Shown piece after piece: positions 18,835-41,972 of a DNA stretch of 64,000 bases (its first letter is position 1; every line of letters starts with the position of its first letter). The notes beneath the pieces were generated by a model that saw nothing but the letters and a program-made list of their open reading frames with translations, searched no databases and was not told the DNA's origin. Origin of the DNA: Felis catus (taxonomy: Eukaryota); NCBI RefSeq assembly GCF_018350175.1, contig NC_058368.1:42968001-43032000 (forward strand). The letters are read 5' to 3'. Position numbers and translations under genes: made by a program.

Positions 18835-20412
18835 TTTTTTTAATAATTTATTTTTTAATTTACATCCAAGTTAGTTAGTATATAGTACAACAATGATTTC
18901 AGGAGTAGATTCCTTAATGCCCCTTACCCATTTAGCCTATCCCCCTTCCCACAACCCCTCCAGCAACCCTCTGTTTGTTCTCTATAGTTAAAGAGTCTCT
19001 TATGTTTTCTCTCCCTCACTGTTTTTACATTATTTTTGCTTCCCTTCACTTATGTTCATCTGTTTTTATCTTAACGTCCTCATATGAGTGAAGTCATATG
19101 ACATTTGTCTTTCTCTGACTAATTTCACTTAGCTTAATACTCTCTAGTTCCATCCACGTAGCTGCAAATGGCAAGATTTCATTCTTTTTGATTGCCGAGT
19201 AATACTCCATTGTATATATATACCACATCATCTTTATCCATTCATCCGTCGATGGACATTTGAGCTCTTTCCATACCTTGGCTATTGTCCACAACACTGC
19301 TATAAACACTGGAGTGCATGTGCCCCTTCAAAACAGCACACCTGTATCCCTTGGATAGATACCTAGTAGTGCAATTCCTGGGTTGTAGGGTAGTTCTATT
19401 TTAAATTTTTTGAGGAAACTCCATAGTGTTTTGCAGAGTGGCTGCACCAGCTTGCATTGCCACCAACAATGCAAAAGAGATCCTCTTTCTCCGCATCCTC
19501 ACAAACATCTGTTATTGGCTGAGATGTTAATGTTAGCCATTCTGACAGGTGTGAGGTGGTATCTCATTGTGTTTTTGATTTGCATTTCCCTGATGATGAG
19601 TGACGTTGACCATCTTTTCATGTGTTGGTTGGCCATCTGGATGTCTTCTTTGAAGAAGCAGGTATTCATTTCTTTTGCCCATTTCTTCACTGTATTATTT
19701 GGGTTTTTGGGTGTTGAGTTTGATAAGTTCTTTATAGATTTGGATACTAACCCTTTATCTGATATGTTGTTTGCAAATACCTCCTTCCATTCTGTCTGTT
19801 GCCTTTTAGTTTTGCTTATTGTTTCCTTCCCTGTGCAAAAGTTTTTATTTTGATGAGGTCCCAATAGTTCATTTTTGCTTTTGCTTCCCTTGCCTCTGGA
19901 GATGTGTTGAGTAAGAAGTTGCTGCAGCCGACATCAAAGAGGTTTTTGCCTGCTTTCTCCTTGAGGATTTTGATAGGTTCCTGTCTTACATTTAGGTCTT
20001 TCATCCTTTTTGAGTTTATTTTTGTGTATGGTATAAGAAAGTGGTCCAGGTTCATTCTGCATGTCTCTGTACAGTTTTCCCAGCACCGTTTGCTGAAAAT
20101 ACTATCTTTATTCCATTGGATATTCTTTCCTGCTTTTCCAAAGATTAGTTGGCCATACGTTTGTGGGTCTATTTCTGGGTTCTCTATTCTGTCCTATTGA
20201 TCTGAGTGTCTGTTCTTGTGCCAGTACCATACTGTCTTGATGATTACAGCTTTGTAATACATCTTAAAGTCCAGGATTGTGATGCCTCCTGCTTTGGTTT
20301 TCTTTTTCAAGATTTCTTTGGCTATTCGGGGTCTTTTCTGGTTCCATACAAACTTTAGGATTGTTTGTTCTAGCTCTGGGAAGAATGCTGGTGTTATTTT
20401 GATAGGGATTGC
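18835..20412 (-). mobile_element. Carnivore LINE-1 3' end, 5'-truncated, with poly(A)
   Basis: ORF2 C-terminal peptides in ORFs 19094-19309, 19499-19864 and 19816-20055 (KCPSTDEWIK..WYIYTMEYYSAIKKNEILPFA; LDHFLIPYTKINSK); 3'UTR; T-rich tail at about 18835-18857; TSD cagaaaatatt / cagagaatatt. Confidence 0.95.
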
Positions 20413-20426
20413 CAGAGAATATTCTT

Positions 20427-20702
20427 TTTTAAAAAGATGTTTATCTATTCATTTTTTTAAAAAGAATGTTTATTTATTTATTTTCTACAGAAAGAGAGAG
20501 AGAGAAACAGAGAGAGGCAGAGAGAGAAGAGAGAAAGAGAAGAGAAGGTGGGGCAGAGAGAGAGGGAGACAAAGAATCCCAAGTAGGCTCTGCACTGTCA
20601 GTGCACAACCCGATGCGGGGCTTGAAGTCACAAACTGTGAGATCATGACCTGAGCTGAAATCAAGAGTCAGATGCTTACCTGACTGAGCCCCAAGTCACC
20701 CC
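20427..20702 (-). mobile_element. Can-SINE
   Basis: Reverse SINE; TSD cagagaatattctt (20413) / cagaaaatattctt (20703). Confidence 0.92.
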
Positions 20703-21280: not shown

Positions 21281-21489
21281 GTTTTTTTCTAAGTTTATTT
21301 ATTTAGTTTTGAGAGAGAGAACACAAATAGCAGAGGGGTGCAGAGACGGGGAGGGAGACAGAGTCTGAAGCAGGCTCCAGGCTCTGTATTGTCAGCACAG
21401 AGCCCGATGCAGGGCTCGAAGTCACAAACTGCAAGATCATGACATGAGTTGAAGTCAGACATTAAACTGACTGAGCTACCCAGGCGCCC
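21281..21489 (-). mobile_element. Can-SINE
   Basis: Reverse SINE ending caggcgccc; TSD-like cctggctggttttt / cctggttgttttt. Confidence 0.92.
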
Positions 21490-21550
21490 TTCCCTGGTTG
21501 TTTTTTAATGTCTTGTATTTGTTTTTAGTGATTTATAACTGATAATTTCT

Positions 21551-21735
21551 TTTTTTTTTTGAAGTTTATTTATTTATTTTAAGAGTGGGGGTAGTGGGAG
21601 AGAGAGAATCCCAAGCAGGCTCCACACTGTCAGTGCAGAGCTTGATGCAAGGCTTGATCTCACCAACAGTGACATCATGACCTGAGCCAAGATCAAGCGT
21701 CAGACATTTAACCAATTGAGCCATCCAGGTGCCCC
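21551..21735 (-). mobile_element. Can-SINE
   Basis: Reverse SINE; TSD ataactgataatttct / ataactgatcatttct. Confidence 0.92.
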
Positions 21736-22183
21736 ATAACTGATCATTTCTTAAGTGAGATTGTGACTTTCATCAATTCTAGAAATTTCACATATAAAAT
21801 TTCTTCCAATATTTTCTTTCTCTTACTATTTTACATTTAAATATGTATTACCTTCTCTCATCCTATTCTCTAGTAGCACTTAAACTTTTTTGTATTTTAT
21901 ATTATTTTATATTTCTGACTTCTTATGTTGAATGTTCTGTGTTTTCTTCAGATGGTTCATCCATCCAACTAATTCTTTCTTTGGCTGTGTTTTTTCTGTT
22001 GTTTAACTCATGTAGAATTTTTATTCTGAGTTATGGTTTTGAAAAGTCTTTACTAGTTGGTTTTTAGTGGGCTTTCCTCCACAAAAATCCCCATATACAT
22101 ACTTATAGTATACTCTCCTCAGGAAATTTTCAATTTATAATCTAATAACTTAAGTTCTTAAGTGTTCTTATTTCACATATATG

Positions 22184-22662: not shown

Positions 22663-23589
22663 TAATATGCAATAATTCTAACACACAATGTTTATATATC
22701 TAGTTTTTAAATTACTTTTCCCTGATGCAGATAATTTATGGAGACTTGTTCTTATAATATTTTATGATTTTTAATTGGTATTTTTATTTTTTTATATCTC
22801 TATGGCATTTCTACGAGGTTTGGTTTTAAGTTTGATTTCTTATAGAAGATGTCTTTTTTTTTCTTTATTTCTCTGCCTGAGACCTGGAGGAAATACAAAT
22901 CTAGTCTGGTTTAAATTATTTTTTCTTTCATATTTTTTGAACCAGACAAACTGTGCAAATTCAATTCCCATACTTAGCCAGTTGCCATAAAATCTCAAGA
23001 GAAGCGATTTCTATTTTACTTATACCAAGAACCTGGAACACAAGAGGTAAATTTTCTTTCCTTTCTGTCTTCAAAATTTTTTCAGTTAACTTTTTCTTAT
23101 AGTATAGATCTTTCTCCATTCCTAACTCTATGTGTGGTGAATTCTTATATTGGTCCCTACCCTCCACAGGTGCAGATTCACTGATTTTCAACAACCCCCT
23201 CAGAGGTATACAAATTCAGGATTTATAGCAGCTTCAGAAATTGCATATTTTCCTAAATTTGTCATCTCAATTTGTTCTGACCTCAAAAAAATTACATTTC
23301 TGTGTGATATATACAACTACTCTATTAAAATATGATTTTGGTCTCACAATTTTAGATATTTTGTAGCCACTGGTTCATATGGAAGTGAGCATAACTATGC
23401 CTCAGCTTTTTTAAACAGTAATTTATTTAGTTCATTAAAAAGTGGATTCCATTTCAAAATGGTAATTTAATACTATTTTAGATCTATTTCAAGTGAATAG
23501 AGCTTACCAAATAAGTTTTAGAAATTTATTTCCATGTCCTAAGTTTTATTGCAGGAGAGTTTGCCAATATATGTTTGATAATTATTGAT

Positions 23590-23651
23590 ATTTTTTATAT
23601 TTACTTATTTATTTATTTTAGAGAGACAGTGTGTGTGAGCAGGGGATAGGG

Positions 23652-23694
<43 letters not shown>

Positions 23695-23818
23695 TCTTAA
23701 GCAGTCTCCATGCTCAGCACAGAGCCCAATGTGGGGCTTAGTCTCACAACGGTGGGATCATGACTTGAGCCAAAATCAAGAGTCAGACACTTAACCAACT
23801 GAGCCACCCAGGTGTCCC
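23590..23818 (-). mobile_element. Can-SINE with expanded (GA)n
   Basis: Reverse SINE ending gagccacccaggtgtccc. Confidence 0.92.
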
Positions 23819-24741
23819 TATAGCAGCTTTTAGATTACACATTTGGGATGGCAATACTCTGAAGTGCAATGCTCTGCATGGTGTGGATGAGGAAAAGGAG
23901 TTCAATATTCATTTCCCAAACTTAAATGCTAATTTGTCAGAGATTCTATAAAGCAGAATACTTCACATAAGCCAATATTTACCCACATGTTTTGATCAGA
24001 CCTCACTGAAACCAAAATGTACAAAGCCCAAAAAACAAACAAACAAAACAAAACCTTACAAAAATATCTTTAAATGAGCTGTAAAGGAATTATATTTTTA
24101 AAATAAGGTTACATTTCCATATTAATTGGCAAAATTGCAATTATACCTTTAAGTGTGATAATAATTACAAATGGTCTATTTCCTGTATATTTGGAAATAC
24201 ATTTTCTGAGTAATTTAGAAGGAGTATTTCAATATATTTTCACTTATGCCCACTAAAGCTAGTATTTTATTTATTAGTGTTTCCAACATGGAGTATATAC
24301 TGCAATCCATAGGTGATGTTCTATTCTTATCACTGACACTGAAGCAAATGAAATTTTGATGTTTATATATCCATAAACTGAGGAAGAATCAATAGAAATT
24401 AATACCTGTGACCAAAGGACAAGGCTCCTCTTGAGTATTAAAATCAAACTGTGAATTTCCTTACAGTATCTCAATAGCCACATTTTAAATCCAAAACAGA
24501 GAGAATGACTATTTTCATTTACTTCTCAGGAATATGTACTTTTCTATCATTCATTTTAGTGAAAGGGTTTCATTATTTTGTTTTCACAAGGAATTATTTT
24601 TATTGCCCATAAATAGTTTGCTTGTAAATTTGAGGAATGATTTCTTTAAGGATCCACAATTTGTGAAGCCTATAAAGATTTGGGGTAAAAGAATGACAGC
24701 ACGGTCTAGTAGACTTAAACTCTAATTTTAAGAATGTGACT

Positions 24742-24925
24742 TGGAGCACCTGGCTAGCTCAGTCGGTTAAGTGTCCAACTCTTGGTCTCAGCTTCGGTTA
24801 TGATCTCACACTTCCTGGGATTGAGCCCCTGTTGGGATCTGCACTGACAGTGCAGAGTCTGCTTGGGATTCTATACAAACAAACAAACAAACAAACAAAC
24901 AAACAAACAAACTTTGAAAAATAAA
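24742..24925 (+). mobile_element. Can-SINE with (AAAC)n tail
   Basis: ggagcacctggctagctcagtcggttaag head; TSD aagaatgtga on both sides. Confidence 0.9.
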
Positions 24926-25567
24926 GAATGTGATTTAAAGTAAGATTATAGAATTAGATAATCCTATGAAAAATGCATATGATGTAGCATTTATTGTTTT
25001 CTTGGCATTTGGTTTTCTACCAAATTGGCCATAATATCTTAGAAGTCCTTAGAATAGAAGTCCTGATAACCACAAAGCTATAATATAAAACAAATGCAGG
25101 GGGTAAAGAAAATTTTCTATAGCTATAGATCAATGATGCAGCTCTAGAAATATCTTAAAAACTTGCAGTAAAGCTGTTTCAGTGTTGTGTTTCCCAGATT
25201 CTGCTTCATTGCTCATTTGTGAAAACAAACATTTGCCATGAAGACATAACTGCCAATTTAGCCTAAATAAGACAAATGAGATAATGAGACCAGTGGCAAA
25301 TGCGAGTTGACAAATCCTGCAGAATGCCCAGCTTCAAGTAAAAAGCTTTCCTTTCCTGCCAAAAGGTCTATATGCTAATGCTAACTAATTTGCCAACCTT
25401 GGCCCTACATTGTTTGACAATAGCTGAGCATCCCAATTTGTTATAGTTGTGACATTAATTTGGATGTAAAATGTGGCTTGATCTAGTAATCTATGCAACC
25501 TCTTCACCCAGCAACCAATCACACAGATGTATACTTTGTACTGAAAAGGCTTACAAATGCAGAGAGG

Positions 25568-25628
25568 TTTTTTGTTTTTTTGTTTTTGTTTTTGTTTTTG
25601 TTTTTTGTTTTTGTTTTGTTTTGTTTTT
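25568..25628. repeat. (TTTTTG)n simple repeat
   Basis: Seen directly. Confidence 0.9.
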
Positions 25629-26851
25629 AAACTCAGGATATATTAATATAGAAAAGGTAGTGGTATAGACATCATAACTGTGACTTTCACCTGTGCATAT
25701 CTTGGTTAGAGTAATAAGGTGAAATAAAGTATGTTATTTACTTTAACATAATGAGGTCATTTGGAATATTTGCCCTGAATCAGTTATTCAAATATCTGTA
25801 ACTTAGCCACCAGTTTTGATGGACTTTGAGAAGTCAATTTAGAGGATTAAAAAATATATATATCTTTTGAATCTTTCCAGAATTACAAAATAACCACAGG
25901 TAATGATTCTCACACATTCTTCAATTCATTTTCCTTATTATTTAAAAGAAAAATGTTCCTATGTGTTTGCATTACTCCTGAAGTAACTTAATTTTGTGGA
26001 TTACAGTAGAAATAAGCTAAAATTTATTTAGAGAAATCTGGTATTTAAAAAAAAATAGGTACTTAACAGTTAATAAATGCTTGTTTTGTGCCTTTAACTA
26101 GGTTAAGCAATAATAGTACTAAAATTGCATATAGGAAGGATAGATTTTGAAAACAAGTGCTTATTTTGACTGAGTATGAATTGGTGTGGGTCATTCATTT
26201 TAGAAGTACACTAGAATTGCAGGGCGCTAATTCACACTTTGTAAACTGTACTAAGACATTTAGTTCCTCTCAGGTAGCTAAAAATGAATGTAAGACATTT
26301 TATAATTACAAAATTAGTACATACTAATTCTACCATCATAAAATCAATTAATCAAAAACCCTTTGGAAAGCTGTTTGGAATGAGGAAGTGAGGAAGAGCA
26401 AACCAGACAGAAGTCAAAGTCTTTTTGTAACCTTTGCTTTGAAAAACATCATTAAAAAATAAATTCATCAAACGGATATATTTCTTCCCAAATTAGGACA
26501 ATTCATGATAATACCCATAAGTTTCTGTAAATAACCTTTTAAATTTCATTTAAAATACATTTATAGAAAATATTGGAGCTTAAAATATTTTAAATTACAA
26601 AAACAGAATTTTGAAACAATATTTTGAATTTTTATCTCCTAGGTCTATATTCTTATTGAGGGGGAAATAATCTAAAAATATAAAGGTCTATTCACAGTTT
26701 TTAAAAATGCATTAAAATGTTTTTAACTCTGCCATCAACTTATAAAATTATAGAAATAAAGAACTGCAAAGAACTTAGAAGTTATATGAACACACTTCTA
26801 GACAAATGGTAACAAATGTTAATTTGATTCTTGAATATTTTCTATTACAAA

Positions 26852-27030
26852 TGTTGCAGGCAGCCTCTAAGATGGCTCCCAGTGATTGTCCCTCCTAGTT
26901 AGTATTCATGCCCTTATTATATATAACTGTCTTTTTTGTTTGTAGGCTGGTAATGACTCACTTATAACAAATAGAATATGGCAAAATTTATGGGACTTCA
27001 CTTCTAAAATTAGGTTACAAAAAAACTTTG
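26852..27030 (+). mobile_element. 5' part of a MaLR LTR, MLT1E/F-like
   Basis: tgttgcaggcagcctctaagatggctcccagtgat...gtattcatgccctt...aatagaatatggcaaaa..atgggacttcacttctaaaattaggttacaaaa. Confidence 0.75.
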
Positions 27031-27130
27031 ACTGATATATTCCCTAATATATCAAGCTACAAAATAGTAGTGCATCCATGGGTCTCATAATAGCCAGGGC
27101 TCTCCAGGCTCTCTAAGGCACAGGCCATAT

Positions 27131-27292
27131 TTGAATGCAAAAGAAGCTGGAGAGGGTCCAGACACCACCACTTGGTCTAAACTGCTAGAAGAACTTTATG
27201 GGAAATCAATATAAAAGTTAAGTGAGAAATGGAAAGGGTTGCTTCCCTGAGTGGTGGTGTCTGGACCCTCTTCAGCTTCTTTTGCATTTCAA
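27131..27292. repeat. Near-perfect inverted repeat: 42/43-bp arms, 77-bp spacer
   Basis: 27131-27172 ttgaatgcaaaagaagctggagagggtccagacaccaccact is the reverse complement of 27250-27292 agtggtggtgtctggaccctcttcagcttcttttgcatttcaa, with one substitution and one 1-bp indel. Confidence 0.97.
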
Positions 27293-27309
27293 GAGTAGCC
27301 ACAACTCAC

Positions 27310-29200
27310 TCATGGAGTTTAATGATAAACATTTCTGATAACCAGGTACAATATGCTTGGTACATCAGCATTCAGATTGTCAACACATTCCAGAACAGAG
27401 TGGCAAGAAGGTAAATCCAGAGTCATGTTATCAGTTGTTGCTTGGTATGAGTGAATTCAGACCCACTGTTAACACTTTAACATCAGTTTACCCCTAAATT
27501 CTGGATACAGCTATATCATGTATACTTTTTAACATCCTTTTATATCTCTTTTCAACAGTAAATTTTTGATCAGTCAAGTCAATCTTCATGTGAGCTACAT
27601 CAATTGAAGATTGAAGATCAATTTTCTTAAATAATATTCTTCTCTGTGATTTCTCATTGGAATATATCCTTTTTTACTCAGTGTCTTTCAAACAACCAAC
27701 ATATCTTTTATTATACCAAACACCAGTAGATGTGCTATTAAACTAATGTTTTGTACACCAAATATATAGTCACAATATATCAAGGGTGTCTTCCAATAAG
27801 ATAAGTGATTATTAAAAAGTTCATTGAATTTGGTTGGGGCCTATCAAGCCTGTGCTCCCAGTCATAACCCACTTAAAAACAATCAGCTCTGACAAATATT
27901 ATATTTTAAGTATCATTGTGTACAATGATTCATCTACTTCCCATTGAGATGACATACCACAGATTATATTTTGCCTTGTTCCTACCAATTGTGTTACCAG
28001 GAAGCCTTTCCTAGTCAATGCTTCTCGGACATTCTTCACAACTTGTTCTGTTGATATTTTTTCTATGAGTGAGTTCCTCTAGCCTGGACTTCCCTGATAC
28101 CCAGGAATTCTCCTCACAACATATTTGACTCCATGGTCATCTACATAAGATACCCATTCTAAACAAGGGATCACACCTTCTCCCAAAATGTCACTCAGGA
28201 AAATCGCCCAATTATTTTAGGGATATTTGTGCTCCACATACCTGTTGTTCATCATCTTTCTAAGTCTTGCCAAATTTGGCTAGTTTCTTGCCAAAGTAAT
28301 CCCTCTAAAATTTCTACCTGGGAAAGTATACACTTTTCAACATGTGGCATGCTTCCAAAAATGCTATTTCTGCTTGGCTCAAAACACTTTGTTATATATT
28401 AAAAGTTCCTGAATCCCTTCAAGATCATTGTGGTCAGTGTTGACTTCACCACTACACTTGCATTGCCACTATTAAGCATGAGTATGGTCTAGAGAAACTA
28501 TTTACATACCCCACGTCATATTGAGGTTATTAGTAAATCATTAATCACATATATTCTTTGCCAGAATCTACTCAATCTATGTGTACTGTAAGAAATTCCT
28601 AAAGGGAATTTGCTTGGGGCTCTAGAAGAGAACATCAATGAGTATGGATCTACACCTTCTCTATAATATTAACCCCCTCATTATGATCAACCTCTTTTCA
28701 GTTCCTATTCTTGATCTCATTACATTCACATTTACTATATTCAGAACAGCAGAGAAGGCTCTGGCATACCAAATAAGCTACAGCAATATAACATTCCTCA
28801 TATCTTGGCAACAACTTTAACAGTGTGTCAGTCTGGTTTGTGGTTATTTAATGCACAGGTGATCAAATATTGTACAATCATAGATCTGTCCAGTGTAAAT
28901 ATAATACTTCTTTCAGCATAAAAACTTGATTAGTGAACACTGCCTATAAACCTTTAACTAAAAGAAGGTTCCAAATGACAAAGATGCAGTAGGGTCATCA
29001 GTGAGTGATGCATCATACTTTTTCCCCTCTGAATTACACAAGAAGAATTTTTTGGCAAAATTCCTAATTCGTCTTTAGTGCAGTGACTTTTTTTCTGGAG
29101 AAAACTGCTGGTGGTCTTCCCCAAGGACCCCAAACTAACTTTTGTCATTTTCTTGCCTGGAGACACTCTTGAGGGAACAAAGCATTAGCAATTTTCCTGA
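27310..29200 (-). pseudogene. env: Envelope-like ORF remnant of the class III ERV
   Basis: RRCR|SILIDVLF furin-type site (28660-28649); EILEGLLWQETSQIWQDLER**T (28320-28246); WEVDES/CTQ*YLKYNICQS (27943-27886); KRYVGC; terminal hydrophobic LIT*LWIYLLATLFWNVLTI*MLMY (~27437-27355) then a short tail and stop. Confidence 0.65.
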
Positions 29201-29299
29201 CATTATCACTCACTTCCTAGTTCCTTTATTTAAGTTACTGTTTACCTGTTTTTCATTATCCCCAAATTTTACCTACTTTCTACTTGGATTGGGTTGAAG

Positions 29300-29540
29300 G
29301 GCTCAGGCACAATCCACAACCATAAAGTTGGGAAAAGCTGTCTTTTCTTTCATCCATTCTCATTCTTGGATTTGTGAGCCACAGATAACCTACATACCAA
29401 AAAAAAGTCAGAGCTGCCAACATAAGGCCTATTTAACCCAACAATTCTTTTGAAATAAGTGCTACAAGAGTCTTAGAGTTAATGTCATGTGCCAAAATGT
29501 CTCTCTTAATAGGAGCCAACAAACTGAATCAAGGCCTTGG
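29300..29540 (-). pseudogene. Possible degenerate dUTPase-like segment after integrase
   Basis: VPRP*FSLLAPIKRDILAHD..LISKELLG*I..LWLTNP..EWMKEK.. at the position where ERV-L carries dUTPase; similarity is weak. Confidence 0.35.
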
Positions 29541-30809
29541 TACCAAGGGATACTATATTACAATAGAAAAAAAAATGTCAAGTGGAAAAGACAAAGATTT
29601 GTATTATGACATCATCTGCTACATATGCACTCCCCATTTCTGCACCCAAAAATATTCCTTTTATATCCTCCCTATTTAAGCATTAAAACCAGTCATCTGC
29701 ATGCAGATAAGTTCTTTGTTCCGTGTTCCATTTTTTAGCAAATGTTTTCATTGACCCTTTCAATTTCTTTTCAAAGCACCACTCTGAAGGTGAGAATGAA
29801 AGAAATATCTCCAAATAATATGGTGCTTTTAGCAGATCAGTACATCACAGTCATTGTGAAGTAGGTCCCTTAAGAGGAGAAAATATATATGGGTGCTTCA
29901 AATTGAAATGATTCAAATTGTTCCTATATTTCTGTAACATTTTGACCATTGTTCCAGTATAGACATTTACAACAACAATAACAAAAAAAGTGGAGAATGT
30001 ACTAATGCCTATCAGAACCCTTATAAATCCTCCAGAAGCTTTAAGTAATGGTTCAAAATGATCTCCCTGATAATAATCAGCTGGACTCTCCCTGTGGAAT
30101 TCATTCCATGGCAAGTTAAAAAAAGAAAAAAAAAAGATCTTTTCTTATCATCATTCTGAAGAGCCATAGGCAACTATTGGTACCTCAACTGAGAACAAAG
30201 AAATATATCTTCATTCAGACGAACTGCCCCTATGGAAACTCATCTCTTATACTCAGCTTGCTACTTCAAATAGTTTTTGAAACATCCCATTCTTGTTCCT
30301 TTAGAATTTTCTGCTAGGATTTTTAGGGAGCATTCCACATCTACTACCTTTTCTTCCTTTCTTGGGATTCCAGAAGTCCTTCCAAAATTAGAGATCTCTG
30401 CAAGTTGGTATTTTTAAGTATCCAGTTGTCTATGACTCACTTAATCAAACACATAGGCAGGCTATCACCTCTGCCCTAGAATTTGTTAAAATCCACACAT
30501 ATTTCCTGAGAATAAACTCCCAGATTTTGTACAAAAAGCTGAACATACTACTCCAAGTAATTTAACCTACTGTACCAATTTGCCCTTTCCTACTTTTCCA
30601 AGAATATTTTTCCTCCACCAGCTGAATTGCTGAAATTCCTTTTTCTGAGTGTTGTCACAGGTACATCATGCTGCTTGCATTGTTTTATCAAAAAGAAACA
30701 TAGAGGTAGGTCATTCAGCAATGGCATATGGAGAAAGAAGGTCCTAGGGTTGGTTAATTGTCATGCAAATGGTAGCCATATTATGTGATGATTCTCCTGA
30801 GGCATCAGC

Positions 30810-30887
30810 TACAGGATTCTGTATATATACAGGATACTGTATATATACAGGATTAATATATATATTAATATATCTATACAGCACTTA

Positions 30888-30928
<41 letters not shown>
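30810..30928. repeat. Compound acaggat-tatatat minisatellite plus (CA)n inside ERV pol
   Basis: acaggattctgtatatat / acaggatactgtatatat / acaggatt.. then about 20 CA units at 30889-30928. Confidence 0.9.
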
Positions 30929-30931
<3 letters not shown>

Positions 30932-32188
30932 TTTCACTTGATAAATGAACTTTCTTTGGAAACTTCCAATGAGAGTCTCAATTGTCTTCATCATAGGCTC
31001 AGAGTTTCCCTTTGGTCTTCTGACACACTTTCTCTGAATTATTCTAACCTTTTTCCCAGCCACAAATCCCATGCAAGATAATTAAGAAAGTAAATTCATT
31101 ATTTTTATCCTGTTTGCCTTTAGTTGCTGGGTGCTGTCTCTACTAGAGCCCAATACCACGTGAATAGTTTTTGGTGAAAGAGGAATGAGTAGCAGTCTAT
31201 TATCATCGTAGCCTATAACAAGGATTTGGGGAAGCATAAACTGACTTCTGTCACAAAGTTCATCGAGCATGATGGCAAGTTGGTAAAATGTCTAACGTCA
31301 TATATTCATTTGGTTCTTATGGTCCCAGTGGCCTAGCACAAGTGCTGTGCTACAGCACTTTCTGTATCCCACAATATGAAACTCTGTTCAGATGTCCACT
31401 TGAATTGTCTTTTTCCTAGCCCACTTAGCTCTTCTTTCACTTTGCTTATTTTAAATAGGCAATAAAATTCCCAAAATTAGGAGGGTGTATAATTAAGAAT
31501 TAAATATATTCATTAAATGCTGGACTGTCTTATTAGTAGTCAAATTCTTCAGAAACAGTAATTTGTTCCTATTTTTGTAAAGCTCTCTTGAGGCACCAAA
31601 TGTATTTCAAAATTTTATTGTCTTAGCCTGCTTCTGAAATTTTGAAAACTATTAACCATTCTCTATAAAACTTATGTGTAACTTTTGTTATCAAGGGGTT
31701 TTTTTTTTGCTTCTTTTCCTCATTCTGTTACTATTATAATGCCAACAACCCAATAATTCAGTCTTTTCTTCACCAATATCATGCTCAAATCTGTCTTCAC
31801 AGAAGTATAATAGTACATGATAAAAGTATAATAGTACATGACAATACCTTTGACAATGTGGTAAAAATGTGTTCAATTTCTACCTATGTAAAGGCAAATG
31901 TGAGTTTTATTTTCTTCTGTTGAAAGTATGAAAATAAAGCATCAACACAATCAATCACAGTATATCAGTCTCCATTAGCTTGTTGTATCTTTTGGATAGT
32001 TTATATCAGATACTCCTATCAACTGCATTGCATTATTCATTCTTTGTTAGTCTACATCAGTCTTCACAATCCTTCTTCCTTTCTCATTCATCAAACTCAA
32101 ATTGCTATAGGGTACATTGATATTATTACCCTCACTTCTACCATTTCTTATGTCAAAGTTGAAATTTTTTGTTGCCCTTGGGAATTCT

Positions 32189-32408
32189 TTTTTTTTTTTA
32201 ATTTTTTAATGTTTATTTATTTTTGAGAGAGAGAGACAGAGTACGAGCAGGGAAGGGGGAGAGAGAGAGGGAGACACAGAGTCTGAAGCAGGCTCCAGGC
32301 TCTGAGCTGTTAGCACAGAGCCTGACACAAGGCTCAAACTCACAAACCGTGAGATCATCACCTGAGCTGAAGTCCGATACTCAACTGACTGAACCACCCA
32401 GGTGCCCC
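32189..32408 (-). mobile_element. Can-SINE (SINEC_Fc-like) inserted in ERV RT
   Basis: Perfect 16-bp TSD tgcccttgggaattct at 32173-32188 and 32409-32424. Confidence 0.96.
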
Positions 32409-32869
32409 TGCCCTTGGGAATTCTATATTGCCTAATATTTATTGACAAATAAGCCTAGGATGGTTCATTTTACATGTCCAATTTATTCTGAATGAGGATA
32501 GGCTTGCCTGAAATTTCACCTAAAGGAGATAACAGCAATGTTTGCCACTTAGATCACACTTATTGTGAAACATGAATTTAGGTAAATACCTTTCAGCTTC
32601 CAGGATTTTGATCTGCAATTGTATTTCACTCATGAATAACTTCATTCATTGAGTACTTTTCAAGAAAGCATTTTCATAACCATCCAATCCTACCAAAGTC
32701 CCTGTAGGGTCTCCTCACTGCCATAGGTAGGGATGCTGGTAAATTAGTTACCTTTATCCAACAAGCCAAAGAGGAAATGCTCCACGTGCCCTGGTATTCA
32801 ACCTAAAAATTTAACATAGCCTTAAGATTATGCTGGGGGAAGCAGTAACAAGTTCCTGGAGTAAGTCAG

Positions 32870-34330
32870 ACTTCACAGATGAGATTAATTTTGCACCATG
32901 TTTCAGCCCTCTTACTTAGTTCTTTTTTTCTTTTTTCCTATTTTAAAGTCATCCAGGTAAGGATAGATTGAATATAACAAGATCCTTTAAGAGAGATGAC
33001 TTTTAAGGTAGATGCTTTGTGGGTATTTTTTTTTTCCATTTTAATTCTCTCCTTTTAAAAAACATGGCAGCACAACTCTACTTGACTTAATATGCCTTCT
33101 TTTTTCAACCATTATCCTTAGGCTTCATTTCCCATTCTCCTTTTTTTGCCCTTTTAAAAATTGCTCTAACCTTTTACACATTCTCAAACTTTACAGAAAA
33201 TATTGAGAAATTAATCCTTTACTATATTGTAATGCTCTTTTGTCCCCTAAATAGAAAGATTGGAGTTTTCTGAATTATTACACCAACATTGTTTGGGGAA
33301 GGAGCATGTCAACAGGGACAACTCTATTTTGATTACTGTATAACTGATCCAATAAAGTTGCCACTATAAGCATTTTATTGTTCAATAGAAATGTTCCATT
33401 TTAACATGGAAGAGGAGACAAGGACAATTCTTTTTTGTGAGTACTTGCTTGATTGCCTTTTACCATTTTGAAGAAGATATATCTGTCACATATTGGTCAT
33501 TAATGGGATGAATGACAAAACCACAACTAATTTTAGGAGATACCCACTCCAAGTAGATGTCTTCATTCTGTAATGTCCAAGCATCAAATTATTAGATTAA
33601 ATTCAATTATCTTCCAATCTTCAAAAGATTACTGGAACATCAACATGAATCATTACTTTTTTCCCCAAATACTGATCTTAAAATTTTTATTGCTATTCTC
33701 TAGTTAATAGTTTAATTTTTGCCAATATAGTCACTGTATCTTTGGGCAGGGGTGGCCATTTTCACTGTTTGCCTCTTTTTTTCCTATTCATTTGTAGTCA
33801 AGTATGTCATATAATTTCCTTGGCAAAATTTTTACCATCCCAGATCACAGATGGACAGGTCACCGCCCAGGGACAAAGTTTTATCATTCCTTTCTTCCCA
33901 TGTTGCCTCTTACCTCATAAATATTTTGCTATATTGAAGAGGGGTCTTTGTGTCAATTCCATGTTTTCCTCTAATCTGCCTGTGACACAGCCATTGATTC
34001 AATTTCAGTTGATACTAAGTTTAGAATCCATGAAAATTCACAAGAAATTTTTGCTTCCATTTGAATGACATGCAATAGGCAATACAGCACTCTGACCTGC
34101 AGTTGCTTTGGGAGGTGAGGCTCCATCTCAAGCAGAACTTGCAGGTGTCTTCACTGTATAGGTGCACTTTTCTAAAAAGACAGGGTCGAAGACAGTTCTT
34201 TTCATTTCAATTAATTAAATCTATCCCTGCCATTTCTTTCCTATTTATTATACTCTGCATGTCACAGAGCCCATCAAGGAGTATGCATAAAGGCATATGC
34301 CTCCCATCACAGCTGCAGTTCACCAGTCAG
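32870..34330 (-). pseudogene. gag: ERV gag remnant (class III type; no zinc knuckle seen)
   Basis: Lies upstream of the protease; degraded RLEDN..I*CLDITE*RHL and C-terminal LSQVELCCHVF..KIPTKHL..SIYPYLDDFK resemble ERV-L Gag as recalled; many stops and frameshifts. Confidence 0.55.
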
Positions 34331-34359
34331 CAGATCACAATAAAGAATTCTGACAGCTA

Positions 34360-34785
34360 GGGGCGCCTAGCTGAGTCTTTTTATTTAAAAACAATTTTTT
34401 TAACATTTACTTATATTTGAGAGAGAGAGACAGAGCATGAGCAGGAAAGGGGCAGAAAGAAAGGGAGACACAGCATCTGAAGCAGGCTCCAGGCTCTGAG
34501 CTGTCAGCACAGGGCCCAACATGGGGCTTGAACTCACGAGCGATGAGATCATGACCTGAGATGAAGTCGGATGCTTAACCGACTGGGCCACCCAAGCAGC
34601 CCAAGCATCTGACTCTTGATTTTGGCTCAGGTAATGATCTCATTGTTTATGAGTTTGAGCCCCGCGATGGGCTCTGCCCTGACAGTGCAGGGCTGCTTAG
34701 AATTCCCTCTCTCCTCCCCTCTCTTGTTTGTGCTCTCTCTCTCTCTCTCAAAATAAATAAACATTTAAAAATATTTAAAAAAATT
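34360..34785 (+). mobile_element. Can-SINE (outer copy, split by a nested SINE)
   Basis: ggggcgcctagctgagtc head at 34360, resumes aagcatctgactcttgattttggctcagg at 34603, tail to about 34785; TSD-like ..agctag on both sides. Confidence 0.85.
34378..34602 (-). mobile_element. Can-SINE nested in opposite orientation
   Basis: Full reverse SINE body between the head and the remainder of the outer SINE. Confidence 0.9.
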
Positions 34786-35077
34786 GGTAGCTAGATGCAA
34801 CTGCCCAGCTTGGTAAAACACAGATAACATATCACTCCACATTCATTTCTGGAGGCAGTAGTCCTGGGTCATATTTCCAGGAGTTTCTGAGTCTAGGATA
34901 ATAGTTTAAAGCAGCTATTTTTTTTTACCTGCATATGTATCTGAATACATCATCATTATGATTATCAGCCTATAGACATATCTTGTCAAAGATATTTTGC
35001 AGTTGTGGAGTTCCGAAATAGATTCGATATATAAGATGTATCTGATTAGCAAAATCACAGAAGACTTCATAAAATTT

Positions 35078-35506
35078 TAGGATAAATTTCCTGTATTGCA
35101 AGCCCACTGCAAAACTTAGTAGCTCTAAACAAACACCATTTCTTTGCTCACTTTTCTATCAGTAGACAGTTTGGTGAGCTGGGGTCAAGCTGGGCTCGGT
35201 TCTTTTGCTCATCTTGCCCATGTTAACTCATGCAGTGACAGTTGTCTGGGACTGGATGATCCCACACAGATGATCTCAATTATATGTCTGGAGCTTTTGC
35301 TGGGTGTCTGGATATTCTTCATCTGTGTGATGTCTCTGTTTACATGATTTCTCATCTTCAAGGAAGCTAAACTGTATTTACTTGCAAAATGAAGGTTCCA
35401 GGGTCCTCAGAGGATGCATTATACCAGTAAAAGAAAGCTGCTGGATCATCCAAGATTCAAAAGGAAAGATGGCTGATCTCACATCTTGTGGGAGGAAAAG
35501 AAAGAA

Positions 35507-35558
<52 letters not shown>

Positions 35559-35615
35559 AGGAAAGGAAGAAAGAAGGAAAGGAAGAAAGAGGGAGAGATA
35601 TTTTAATCCACCACA
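35078..35615 (-). mobile_element. MaLR LTR, MLT1H/G-like, containing a (GAAA)n expansion
   Basis: caaaacttagtagctctaaacaaacaccatttctttgctcac...aagctgggctcggttctt...actcatgcagtgacagtt...ttttaatccaccaca (reverse of a tgtggtggatt LTR start). Confidence 0.72.
35497..35592. repeat. (GAAA)n/(GGAA)n microsatellite
   Basis: Seen directly. Confidence 0.95.
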
Positions 35616-35659
35616 ATCCCTTTAATCAGCACATTGTATTTTTAACAAAGCAGAATCAC

Positions 35660-36000
35660 ATTATGCAATGGAGGATAGTATAGTGGTTAAAAGTGAAGAT
35701 ACTGGTGCTTGGCAATTAGTGAGAATAACAGTATGAAAGGCCATAGAGCATGGCGGTTTAGATTGCAGACTTTGGAACCAATCTACCTAGGTTTGATTCT
35801 TGGTTTCTTCACCTAATATTTGTGTGCCTTGGTTAGGTTACTTAACAATCTGTATTTTGGTTTTTTCTTTGCACAATACAAATGATAATTATTAGTAACA
35901 CATGTGTCATAGGGTTATGTGAGAATCAAATGAGCTAATGTATAATATATGAAGTGCTTGATCTAGTTCCTGAAGCATTTTAAGAACTGAATAAATGTTA
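35660..36000 (+). mobile_element. MIR-like SINE relic
   Basis: agcatggcggtttagattgcagactttggaacc..acctaggtttgattcttgg..tgtgtgccttggttaggttacttaac..catagggttatgtgagaatcaaatgagctaatg. Confidence 0.7.
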
Positions 36001-41261: not shown

Positions 41262-41513
41262 TTATTTTAATTTTCTTAAGTTTATTTATTTATTTTGAGA
41301 GAGAGAAATAATTCAAGCAGTGTAGGAGTAGAGAGAGAGAGAGAGAGACAGACAGAGAGAGACAGAGAGACAGAGAGCTAGAGAGTATCCCAAGCAGACT
41401 CCACACTGTCAGCACAGAGCCCGACATGGGACTCGATCTCACAAACATGAGATCATGACTTGAGCCAAAATCAAGAGTTGGACACTTAACCGACTGAGCC
41501 ATTCAGGTGCTCC
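41262..41513 (-). mobile_element. Can-SINE
   Basis: Reverse SINE with GA tract and head ..cgactgagccattcaggtgctcc. Confidence 0.92.
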
Positions 41514-41972
41514 AATAATGAACAAATACTTCAGTTTAAATATAAAGAATATTAGGAAGCTTATCAGATAGTTGAGATGAAAGGGGACAGAGAAAAATTC
41601 AGTATAGAAAGAAGTAAAAACAAAATAGAATCTAAATTATCAGGCATATTCTCTGCATTCATTGCTCTTAGGCTTTGCATATTGCATGACCGGTACTCCC
41701 ATTTGTTAGTGAGCAGCCACGCTAAAAAATGGTGTCTATAATTTTTTGCTGCCTCTGTGTTCATTTCCTGATGAGCACATAGTTCCTAAATTTCATTTTT
41801 AAAATACCTATATTGCATGGACACTCCTGAGATCTTCCTAGTGGTGAAAAAGGTACCGAGATGACTTTGATATGAAATAATACAACTTCTTACTAAGTTT
41901 TTTTTCTCCTCTCTGATTTCAGCTTTTAGAGTCAATAACTTCAATGCATCAGAAAACCACAGAAGTTTTTCT

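What the first reader, a model, noticed from the sequence alone, without database searches (positions are those of the whole stretch)
27310..29200. Env-like remnant with a short N-terminal part and long Cys/Trp ectodomain, unlike gamma-type env
Seen: one frame reads MRNVILL*LIWYARAFSAVLNIVNVNV...RRCR|SILIDVLF, an R-x-x-R site at 28660-28649. Downstream come GISYST..ILAKNI, SQAE, EILEGLLWQETSQIWQDLER**T (the tandem TGA TGA plausibly from TGG TGG), WEVDES/CTQ*YLKYNICQS, YVGC, and a hydrophobic anchor LIT*LWIYLLATLFWNVLTI*MLMY about 15 codons before a stop. Roughly 170 codons precede the cleavage site and 440 follow it. No CKS-17 or CX6CC motif was seen. Established: gamma and beta env have a long SU and a TM of about 200 aa, whereas foamy-virus TM and paramyxovirus F1 have long ectodomains. 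Inference from recall only: motif spacing resembles env-like ORFs of avian/reptilian class III ERVs, so this may be a mammalian fossil of that fusion-protein lineage.
Basis: partly seen in the sequence, partly recalled or inferred. Interest (0 to 1): 0.75.

Follow-up and report, generated by a model that had tools for sequence, protein, structure and literature searches.

The report
Decayed fossil of F-like retroviral envelope
This stretch is a dead, heavily mutated remnant of an ancient retroviral envelope gene, and its intact relatives elsewhere in the same cat-family genome look more like the fusion proteins of RSV- and measles-type viruses than like ordinary retroviral envelopes.

Summary
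They lie in three frames, and the region has as many stops as chance predicts: 35, 49 and 53 per about 630 codons, against 49 expected. ORF statistics therefore show nothing; homology does.

A weak frame hit led to an intact 690-aa env-like frame on another chromosome. A profile of that family (154 natural sequences) finds the window's minus strand as its best hit among 2934 six-frame fragments (E 3.4e-5). Four collinear blocks sum to 30.2 bits, against at most 7.7 in 344 controls. A fifth block passes 0 of 200 shuffles.

The intact relatives split about 262 + 428 aa, with 22 Cys and 32 Trp. They have no CX6CC, no Pfam family and no sequence match to solved structures. Foldseek and language-model features point to pneumovirus/paramyxovirus F-type fusion proteins, but rigid superposition is inconclusive.

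The relatives sit in old proviruses whose pol resembles MLV (class I, not class III). The window copy has no detectable pol, gag or LTR and is non-functional.

Separately, two intact paralogues are conserved across felids.

The parts
27295..29180 (-). Approximate full extent of the env-homologous remnant (profile positions 1-678, extrapolated linearly from the anchor blocks). Only 28847-27548 is actually anchored.
Evidence: Interpolation from anchors 28847=hmm121 and 27689=hmm537. The ends themselves are not significant: hmm1-120 is reached by 59 of 200 shuffles and hmm538-678 by 14 of 200.
28719..28847 (-). Best-preserved block. It is the Cys-rich motif of the N-terminal subunit (profile 121-163), read in frame 2.
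   Evidence: hmmsearch E 3.4e-5 and 19.5 bits, the best of 2934 six-frame window fragments. tblastn with the intact relative gives E 2e-4. tblastx matches five different family loci here. The reciprocal genome search returns family members.
28332..28424 (-). Homologue of the family's subunit junction. Read in frame 2, with 3 stops.
   Evidence: Profile 271-288 maps to 28385-28332 (1.3 bits, collinear). In the family alignment 12 of 14 sequences have a basic pair before the Gly-rich stretch and 7 of 14 have QAE. Coordinates.
28018..28341 (-). Long-helix (heptad-repeat-A-like) region, about 108 codons in one frame (frame 1).
   Evidence: Profile 286-311 maps to 28341-28264 (7.0 bits). Profile 322-395 maps to 28236-28018: 73 codons with no frameshift and 18 identities to the commonest profile residue, a score reached by 0 of 200 shuffles.
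27548..27736 (-).
   Evidence: Profile 522-537 maps to 27736-27689 (2.4 bits) and profile 559-583 to 27622-27548 (0.0 bits). Both are collinear. The signal is weak when taken alone.
27360..27434 (-). Hydrophobic stretch at the place expected for the membrane anchor. The assignment rests on position only.
   Evidence: Coordinates. The intact relative's anchor is at aa 645-676 of 690. The similarity is not significant (14 of 200 shuffles).
28649..28660 (-). It is present but is not at the family's junction, and it cannot be assigned.
   Evidence: locates it. The interval hmm165-262 is not significant (15 of 200 shuffles). The junction maps to 28424-28332.

Best explanation
The stretch is a single-copy, non-functional fossil of an env gene. 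The gene came from an ancient retrovirus lineage that colonised the germ line of the ancestors of cats.

When intact, the gene encoded a type I membrane glycoprotein of about 690 aa with these parts:
- a signal peptide;
- an N-terminal subunit of about 260 aa with a Cys-rich motif;
- a basic cluster followed by a Gly-rich hydrophobic peptide (the presumed cleavage site and fusion peptide);
- a long helix;
- beta-rich domains, including an Ig-like sandwich;
- a membrane-proximal segment, a membrane anchor and a short tail.

This is the layout of a class I viral fusion protein of the paramyxo/pneumovirus-F kind ('class Ib'), not of the gamma-type Env usual for such retroviruses.

Shown: homology of the window to this family, its decay, and the gamma-like pol of the proviruses that carry intact relatives.

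Inferred: the F-like fold, cleavage at the basic cluster, the fusion function, and great age. The stop density is saturated, which would need roughly 0.3 or more substitutions per site. No pol, gag or LTR survives around the window copy, so it is either a truncated provirus or an env-only copy.
For: - Frame search of the genome led to an intact 690-aa frame.
- With that protein, tblastn puts the two best of 38 window HSPs, and a third one, collinear on the minus strand inside the finding.
- The family profile gives E 3.4e-5. The chain scores 30.2 bits against at most 7.7 in 344 controls, and the plus strand scores 2.6.
- An extra block is reached by 0 of 200 shuffles.
- The reciprocal search with frame 2 returns one decayed copy (E 6.3e-6) and both intact ORFs (E 0.016 and 0.12) out of 2.4 Gb.
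- The family has at least 67 matches in this genome and 204 representatives at E <= 1e-3.
- Relatives lie between LTRs, downstream of RVP, RVT_1, RNase_H, rve and MLVIN_C. The RT matches MLV RT at E 2.5e-41.
- F-like evidence from Foldseek: model 2 gives only RSV or hMPV F in all 39 rows shown, best E 8.7e-4, prob 0.92, 353-389 aligned columns on F1 chains of 351-369 residues. Model 1 gives pneumovirus F in its top 11 rows.
- Atlas features: P0001 is nearest to Fusion_gly clusters (0.94, 205 of 256). The rodent relative is nearest to Baculo_F, Fusion_gly, Foamy_virus_ENV and CoV_S2 clusters (0.88-0.90).
Against: - Only about 40% of the length is anchored by individually or jointly significant blocks. 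The N-terminal 120 positions, the interval holding RRCR and the C-terminal third are not significant.
- No sequence link to PF00523, PF12259 or PF03408, or to any solved chain.
- In BFVD only 4 of 50 rows are named F proteins.
- Atlas recognition for P0001 is 1539, below the 2300 mark.
- The intact felid proteins lack a canonical R-x-K/R-R site at the junction, so cleavage is not shown.
- No pol, gag or LTR was found around the window copy, so its proviral origin is inferred from its relatives.
Confidence: 0.72

Rival explanations
1. The remnant is not the tail of a provirus. It is instead a dead copy of an env-only unit. That unit could be a retroposed (processed) copy of a spliced env transcript, or a pseudogenised duplicate of an env gene that the host had already co-opted.
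For: - No pol, gag or LTR similarity within 7 kb upstream or 2 kb downstream. Pfam on six frames of 24000-36000 gave nothing retroviral.
- The 298 tblastx HSPs against two proviral relatives collapse to 17 intervals: 9 SINE/L1, 1 the env block, and 7 lone HSPs of 22-30 bits.
- The flanks are unique apart from common repeats.
- Intact, conserved env-only genes of this family do exist.
Against: At this level of decay, pol and the LTRs could simply be unrecognisable or deleted. Other decayed copies also show env signal only. No poly(A) tract or target-site duplication was seen.
Confidence: 0.15
2. One reading: the remnant belongs to a class III (ERV-L or spuma-like) lineage with a foamy-type Env.
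For: - Foamy Env has been shown to share a structural core with F proteins (PMC11468914: abstract and passages read).
- Foamy_virus_ENV clusters are among the feature neighbours of the rodent relative (0.88).
Against: - The proviruses carrying relatives have MLV-like RT, RNase H and integrase. The RT scores 2.5e-41 to MLV against 3e-12 to the chain I take to be a foamy-virus RT (7kse, named 'Peptidase A9/Reverse transcriptase/RNase H'; the foamy attribution is recalled).
- No PF03408 hit.
- There is one N-terminal signal-like segment and one C-terminal anchor. A foamy-type leader peptide with a second membrane span is not seen.
Confidence: 0.06
3. The resemblance is chance in unique AT-rich DNA. 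There is no gene remnant.
For: Stop density and open-frame lengths match chance. Most single blocks are weak: 7.0, 2.4, 1.3 and 0.0 bits.
Against: - Best fragment E 3.4e-5 among 2934.
- The chain scores 30.2 bits against at most 7.7 in 344 controls.
- Five family loci match the same block.
- The reciprocal genome-wide search returns the family.
Confidence: 0.03

Closest known systems
Paramyxovirus/pneumovirus fusion glycoprotein F (Pfam PF00523; e.g. hMPV F 5L1X, RSV F 3RRR)
   Same: - Precursor layout: signal peptide, shorter N-terminal subunit, basic cluster, hydrophobic peptide, long helix, beta domains including an Ig-like domain II, membrane-proximal segment, anchor.
- C-terminal subunit of about 428 aa.
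- Foldseek aligns the model end to end with F1 chains.
   Different: - No sequence similarity to PF00523.
- The N-terminal part is about 260 aa with a Cys-rich motif, much longer than F2 (the F2 length is recalled).
- It is encoded by a retrovirus-like provirus, not an RNA virus.
Lokiretrovirus Env (Wang and Han 2020, PMC7947760; abstract and passages read)
   Same: A retroviral env that resembles Mononegavirales F rather than orthoretroviral Env. It has a signal peptide, an RXKR site, a fusion peptide, a coiled coil and a TM domain.
   Different: - Lokiretrovirus Env hits PF00523 by sequence (E 2.2e-7 in the paper); this family does not.
- Lokiretroviruses were reported from lampreys, fishes, amphibians and reptiles, with an RT sister to all retroviruses.
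- Here the hosts are mammals and the pol is MLV-like.
Foamy virus Env (PF03408; Fernandez et al. 2024, PMC11468914; abstract and passages read)
   Same: A retroviral Env with a long fusion subunit whose core is F-like ('class Ib' in that paper).
   Different: - Foamy Env is about 990 aa, with a leader peptide, two membrane spans and an inserted receptor-binding domain.
- Its pol is class III.
- There is no sequence match here.
Gamma-type Env and syncytin-type co-opted env genes (PF00429; review PMC9967133, passages read)
   Same: It is carried by class I (gamma-like) proviruses. Family members persist as intact host ORFs while pol decays.
   Different: The hallmark CX6CC and immunosuppressive-domain motifs are absent. 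No TLV_coat hit. The subunit proportions are reversed.
Exogenous epsilonretrovirus Env (WDSV/WEHV)
   Same: The review PMC9967133 (passage read) describes it as a distinct Env lacking gamma-type hallmarks, on a class I-related virus.
   Different: Not compared here, because no sequence was available from a tool. The RT here is closest to MLV among solved structures.

Membership tests
Unnamed ERV env family of P0001 (felid 'uncharacterized protein LOC109503008'-type) | Significant sequence similarity to a profile of the family | tested here: met
   E 3.4e-5 for 28847-28719 among 2934 fragments. The chain scores 30.2 bits against at most 7.7 in 344 controls.
Unnamed ERV env family of P0001 (felid 'uncharacterized protein LOC109503008'-type) | Collinear similarity along the gene | tested here: met
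   Five collinear blocks, profile 121-584 mapping to 28847-27548. The ends are not significant.
Unnamed ERV env family of P0001 (felid 'uncharacterized protein LOC109503008'-type) | Open reading frame | tested here: not met
   35, 49 and 53 stops per about 630 codons in the three frames, plus frame changes between blocks. It is a pseudogene.
Unnamed ERV env family of P0001 (felid 'uncharacterized protein LOC109503008'-type) | Proviral setting (LTR-gag-pol-env-LTR) | tested here: not met
   Met for the two intact relatives. Not met for the window copy.
Gamma-type retroviral Env (PF00429 TLV_coat) | CX6CC and CKS-17-like immunosuppressive motif in TM; Pfam match | tested here: not met
   CX6CC is absent in 5 of 5 full-length relatives. 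No Pfam family at E <= 10 for the window frames or P0001, and none among 118 members at E <= 1. CKS-17 was not searched as a pattern.
Paramyxo/pneumovirus F-type fusion protein (PF00523; 'class Ib') | Sequence match to the Pfam model | tested here: not met
   No hit for P0001 or for 118 members. PF00523 run against the genome hit only three weak loci; two were inspected and are a different, beta-type TM, and none of the three is matched by the family profile.
Paramyxo/pneumovirus F-type fusion protein (PF00523; 'class Ib') | F fold (HRA, domains I-III, HRB) | tested here: inconclusive
Paramyxo/pneumovirus F-type fusion protein (PF00523; 'class Ib') | Cleavage at a basic site directly before a hydrophobic fusion peptide | tested here: inconclusive
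   12 of 14 aligned family sequences have a basic pair before a Gly-rich hydrophobic stretch. The intact felid proteins lack a canonical furin motif there. Cleavage itself cannot be tested here.
Foamy virus Env (PF03408) / class III ERV | Pfam match; leader peptide with a first membrane span; class III pol | tested here: not met
   No Pfam hit. The only hydrophobic peaks are at aa 15-35 and 645-676. The pol is MLV-like.
Lokiretrovirus | Env similar to PF00523 by sequence; RT outside the known retroviral genera | tested here: not met
   No PF00523 similarity. The RT fragment aligns to MLV RT at E 2.5e-41. No RT phylogeny was made.

The most novel reading that the evidence does not exclude
Mammalian gammaretrovirus-like ERVs once carried a paramyxo/pneumovirus-F-like ('class Ib') envelope. 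I found this pol-env combination in none of the papers my five searches returned.

The window copy would be one of the oldest traces of that lineage in the cat ancestry. Younger members were domesticated at least twice in Felidae: two intact paralogues sit in proviruses whose LTRs differ by 15-17%. Related intact ORFs of 814-815 aa exist, one of them in a rodent (Sigmodon hispidus) record. These could be host fusogens or entry-blocking factors of a new structural type.
Probability: 0.35. Interest if true: 0.85.

Novelty: new variant of a known kind. Interest (0 to 1): 0.6.

Why it matters
Orthoretroviral Env and F-type fusion proteins are currently treated as separate origins of class I fusogens (class Ia against Ib, PMC11468914). 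F-like Env is known in retroelements only from foamy viruses, lokiretroviruses of non-mammals, and invertebrate errantiviruses (PMC7947760, PMC13524379).

A family with MLV-like pol and an F-like Env in mammals would show env swapping across that divide. It would add a Pfam-less glycoprotein family to mammalian genomes. It would also supply natural, conserved host genes (felid LOC109503008-type) in which the function of such a protein can be tested directly.

The window copy itself is inert. Its value is as a dated fossil, once its orthology is mapped.

Tried and rejected
- Pfam on X-read six frames of 24000-36000 found no retroviral family. It gave only 5 weak hits (E 0.18-2.3) on a Lys/Glu/Arg repeat.
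- DNA search of the genome with the 1891 bases found only the region itself. Frame 1 alone gave E 0.42 to the intact relative.
- P0001 and the family profile found nothing among solved-structure sequences.
- PF00523 against the genome gave 3 weak hits. The two inspected are a different, beta-type TM, and none of the three is matched by the family profile.
- In BFVD the best hit is unnamed, and 46 of 50 rows are not named F proteins.
- The first MAFFT alignment (A1) misplaced 49 of 148 fragments. It was replaced by A2 (118 sequences) and A3 (106) after local checks. In doing so 32 of the 150 sequences of A1 were dropped, including 12 N-terminal fragments, so the N-terminus of the models rests on about 4 sequences.
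- My frameshift-aware local alignment returned only the top block. Chaining and interval tests were used instead.
- The flanks of three decayed copies share no DNA beyond SINE/L1.
- Rfam on the hairpin gave only plant miRNA models far below their gathering scores: 37 against 100 bits.
- The search of earlier findings returned nothing.
- Literature searches returned no paper describing an F-like Env in mammalian class I ERVs. Subscription journals and Repbase/Dfam notes were not searchable.

Full report
**Observation**

The region was read on both strands.

As a reading frame the region is indistinguishable from background. The three frames hold 35, 49 and 53 stops per about 630 codons, against 48.9 expected from base composition. 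The longest open run is 76 codons, below the median of 83 for 66 equal-sized tiles of the window.

Pfam scans of all six frames of 24000-36000, read through with X at stops, found no retroviral family. The 1891 bases are single-copy in the 2.43-Gb genome at DNA level.

**How the homology was found**

A frame-1 read-through searched against the genome gave a weak hit (E 0.42) to a place on another chromosome. That place holds a 690-aa frame without stops (P0001). P0001 has:
- a signal-like N-terminus and a C-terminal membrane anchor at aa 645-676;
- 22 Cys, 32 Trp and 11 N-glycosylation sequons;
- a basic pair followed by a Gly-rich hydrophobic stretch near aa 262.

Searched back against the whole 64-kb window with tblastn, the two best of 38 HSPs, and a third one, are collinear on the minus strand inside the finding:
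- q70-171 maps to 28991-28722, E 2e-4.
- q293-374 maps to 28344-28105, E 0.69.
- q533-556 maps to 27727-27656, E 7.3.

**Statistical test**

P0001 has 204 relatives at E <= 1e-3 among 1.84 billion representatives, nearly all of them short fragments. A profile built from 154 natural sequences, none from the window, ranks 28847-28719 first among 2934 six-frame fragments of the window (E 3.4e-5). It ranks 28398-28255 second (E 0.21).

The best collinear chain on the minus strand scores 30.2 bits. The plus strand scores 2.6. The maximum is 6.4 in 300 dinucleotide shuffles and 7.7 in 44 other window tiles.

Between the anchors, a further 73-codon block (profile 322-395, mapping to 28236-28018, no frameshift) is reached by 0 of 200 shuffles. 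The other intervals are not significant:
- The C-terminal third is reached by 14 of 200.
- The N-terminal 120 positions are reached by 59 of 200.

Five different family loci match 28910-28692 by tblastx. A reciprocal genome search with the frame-2 read-through returns one decayed copy (E 6.3e-6), both intact ORFs (E 0.016 and 0.12) and another decayed copy (E 0.25). The remnant is therefore real.

|---|---|---|
| SQAE | 28379-28368 | Falls on the motif that follows the Gly-rich stretch; QAE occurs in 7 of 14 aligned sequences |
| EILEGLLWQETSQIWQDLER | 28314-28246 | Lies in the long-helix block |
| YVGC | 27703-27692 | Lies in the profile 522-537 block |
| Hydrophobic stretch | 27434-27360 | Sits where the anchor is expected, but the similarity is not significant |
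| MRNVILL.. | 28801-28721 | Out of frame with the homologous reading |
| RRCR | 28660-28649 | About 75 codons upstream of the family junction |

The family junction maps to 28424-28332.

**What the family is**

At least 67 matches to P0001 occur in this genome, of which two are intact. Both intact ORFs lie between LTR pairs and downstream of decayed pro-pol with RVP, RVT_1, RT_RNaseH, RNase_H, Integrase_H2C2, rve and MLVIN_C hits.

The RT fragment matches MLV RT at E 2.5e-41, against 3e-12 for a chain named 'Peptidase A9/Reverse transcriptase/RNase H' (7kse), which I take to be a foamy-virus RT from recall. The RNase H fragment matches MLV/XMRV RNase H at E 4e-23. So the pol is class I, not class III.

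The Env has no CX6CC in 5 of 5 full-length members. It has no Pfam family and no sequence match to solved structures.

**Fold**

AlphaFold models of P0001 (pLDDT 50.2) and of aa 283-645 (pLDDT 58.2) are poor.

Foldseek against the PDB nevertheless lists only pneumovirus F proteins:
- Model 1: ranks 1-11, best E 3.3e-3.
- Model 2: all 39 rows shown, best E 8.7e-4, prob 0.92, 353-389 aligned columns on F1 chains of 351-369 residues. TM-scores are only 0.18-0.20.

In BFVD the best match is an unnamed 928-aa protein (E 4.9e-4). Four of 50 rows are named F proteins, including one baculovirus F.

Language-model features put P0001 nearest to Fusion_gly clusters (0.94, 205 of 256 features; recognition below the trust mark). 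They put the rodent relative nearest to Baculo_F, Gypsy, Fusion_gly, Foamy_virus_ENV and CoV_S2 clusters.

I read this as probable, not proven, membership of the F-like 'class Ib' fusogens defined in PMC11468914.

**Context of the window copy**

No pol, gag or LTR similarity surrounds the window copy. The 298 tblastx HSPs of 20000-42000 against the two proviral relatives collapse to 17 intervals. Nine are SINE/L1 repeats, one is the env block, and seven are lone HSPs of 22-30 bits.

The flanks are unique except for common repeats. Other decayed copies share no flank DNA with the window copy.

Stop density is at saturation. From the stop-creation rate computed (about 120 new stops per substitution per site), this needs roughly 0.3 or more substitutions per site. 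That is an inference of great age, not a measurement.

**By-product**

The LTR pairs of the two intact relatives differ by K2P 0.174 (572 sites) and 0.152 (456 sites). At half that divergence, at least 10 new stops per ORF are expected, and the probability of none is about 4e-5 before counting indels. With the rate of 2.2e-9 used in PMC7947760, the LTRs imply roughly 35-40 My.

One paralogue is letter-for-letter an annotated felid protein. It is intact (679 aa) in 8 of 10 felid species' annotations, at 96.5-97.5% identity. The other paralogue is 98% identical in two further felids. dN/dS between the two paralogues is 0.48.

An 815-aa relative is annotated in a rodent, and a 78%-identical 814-aa form recurs in 12 of the 15 listed members of its 21-member cluster of unnamed assemblies.

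Expression could not be examined.

**Literature**

Five searches were made, and passages of six papers were read (PMC7947760, PMC13524379, PMC11468914, PMC12583693, PMC10536682, PMC9967133). None describes an F-like Env on mammalian class I ERVs. PMC13524379 states that its vertebrate ERV survey will be reported elsewhere. No supplements were opened.

Noticed in passing
G000:C18:133190425-133192494 (L006/L008) and G000:C1:178208477-178210531 (L009): Two intact env ORFs (frames of 690 and 687 aa, 83% identical to each other) sit inside old proviruses with decayed MLV-like pol. Their LTR pairs differ by K2P 0.174 and 0.152. The ORFs are conserved intact across felid species. They look like co-opted genes and are annotated only as 'uncharacterized protein'.
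   Followed up: partly
P0194 and the P0004 cluster (protein collection): Intact 814-815-aa relatives with 38% identity to the felid proteins. One is annotated in a rodent (Sigmodon hispidus). The other recurs in unnamed assemblies: 12 of the 15 listed members of its 21-member cluster are 814 aa, on contigs of about 2.9-3.6 kb. At the junction they lack the Gly-rich hydrophobic stretch.
   Followed up: partly
window 27134-27288: A near-perfect hairpin directly after the env remnant. Its arms are 39 nt and 97% complementary, separated by 77 nt. It folds at -82 kcal/mol (z -11). It is single-copy in the genome. Only plant miRNA models match it, far below threshold. Such an intact palindrome is odd beside so decayed a sequence.
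   Followed up: partly
window 26412-27033: A 622-bp unit bounded by 22-nt inverted repeats that are 95% complementary. Its 26848-27033 part has at least 40 copies in the genome at 70-85% identity. It is probably a small DNA-transposon-like repeat.
   Followed up: partly
G000:C1:39147241-39147447 (L046) and G000:C13:111052191-111052517 (L043): Two more deeply decayed remnants of the same env family. L046 lies 3.8 Mb from the window and has four collinear profile hits over profile positions 80-618.
   Followed up: partly
G000:C1:126216769-126219909 (L052) and G000:C47:10051826-10054978 (L051): A different env type turned up in the PF00523 search. It has open frames of 221 and 155 aa that begin with an RQKR site and a hydrophobic peptide, like beta-type TM subunits.
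   Followed up: no
window 19100-20450; 20547-20690, 21281-21736, 23587-23821, 24741-24870, 32182-32409, 34373-34786, 41354-41516: A LINE-1 ORF2-like fragment, and many copies of a short interspersed repeat that is shared with every other locus fetched from this genome.
   Followed up: no
window 30882-30929 and about 35480-35600: A (CA)n microsatellite, and a purine-rich simple repeat that translates as a Lys/Glu/Arg repeat. The second is the source of the only weak Pfam hits.
   Followed up: no
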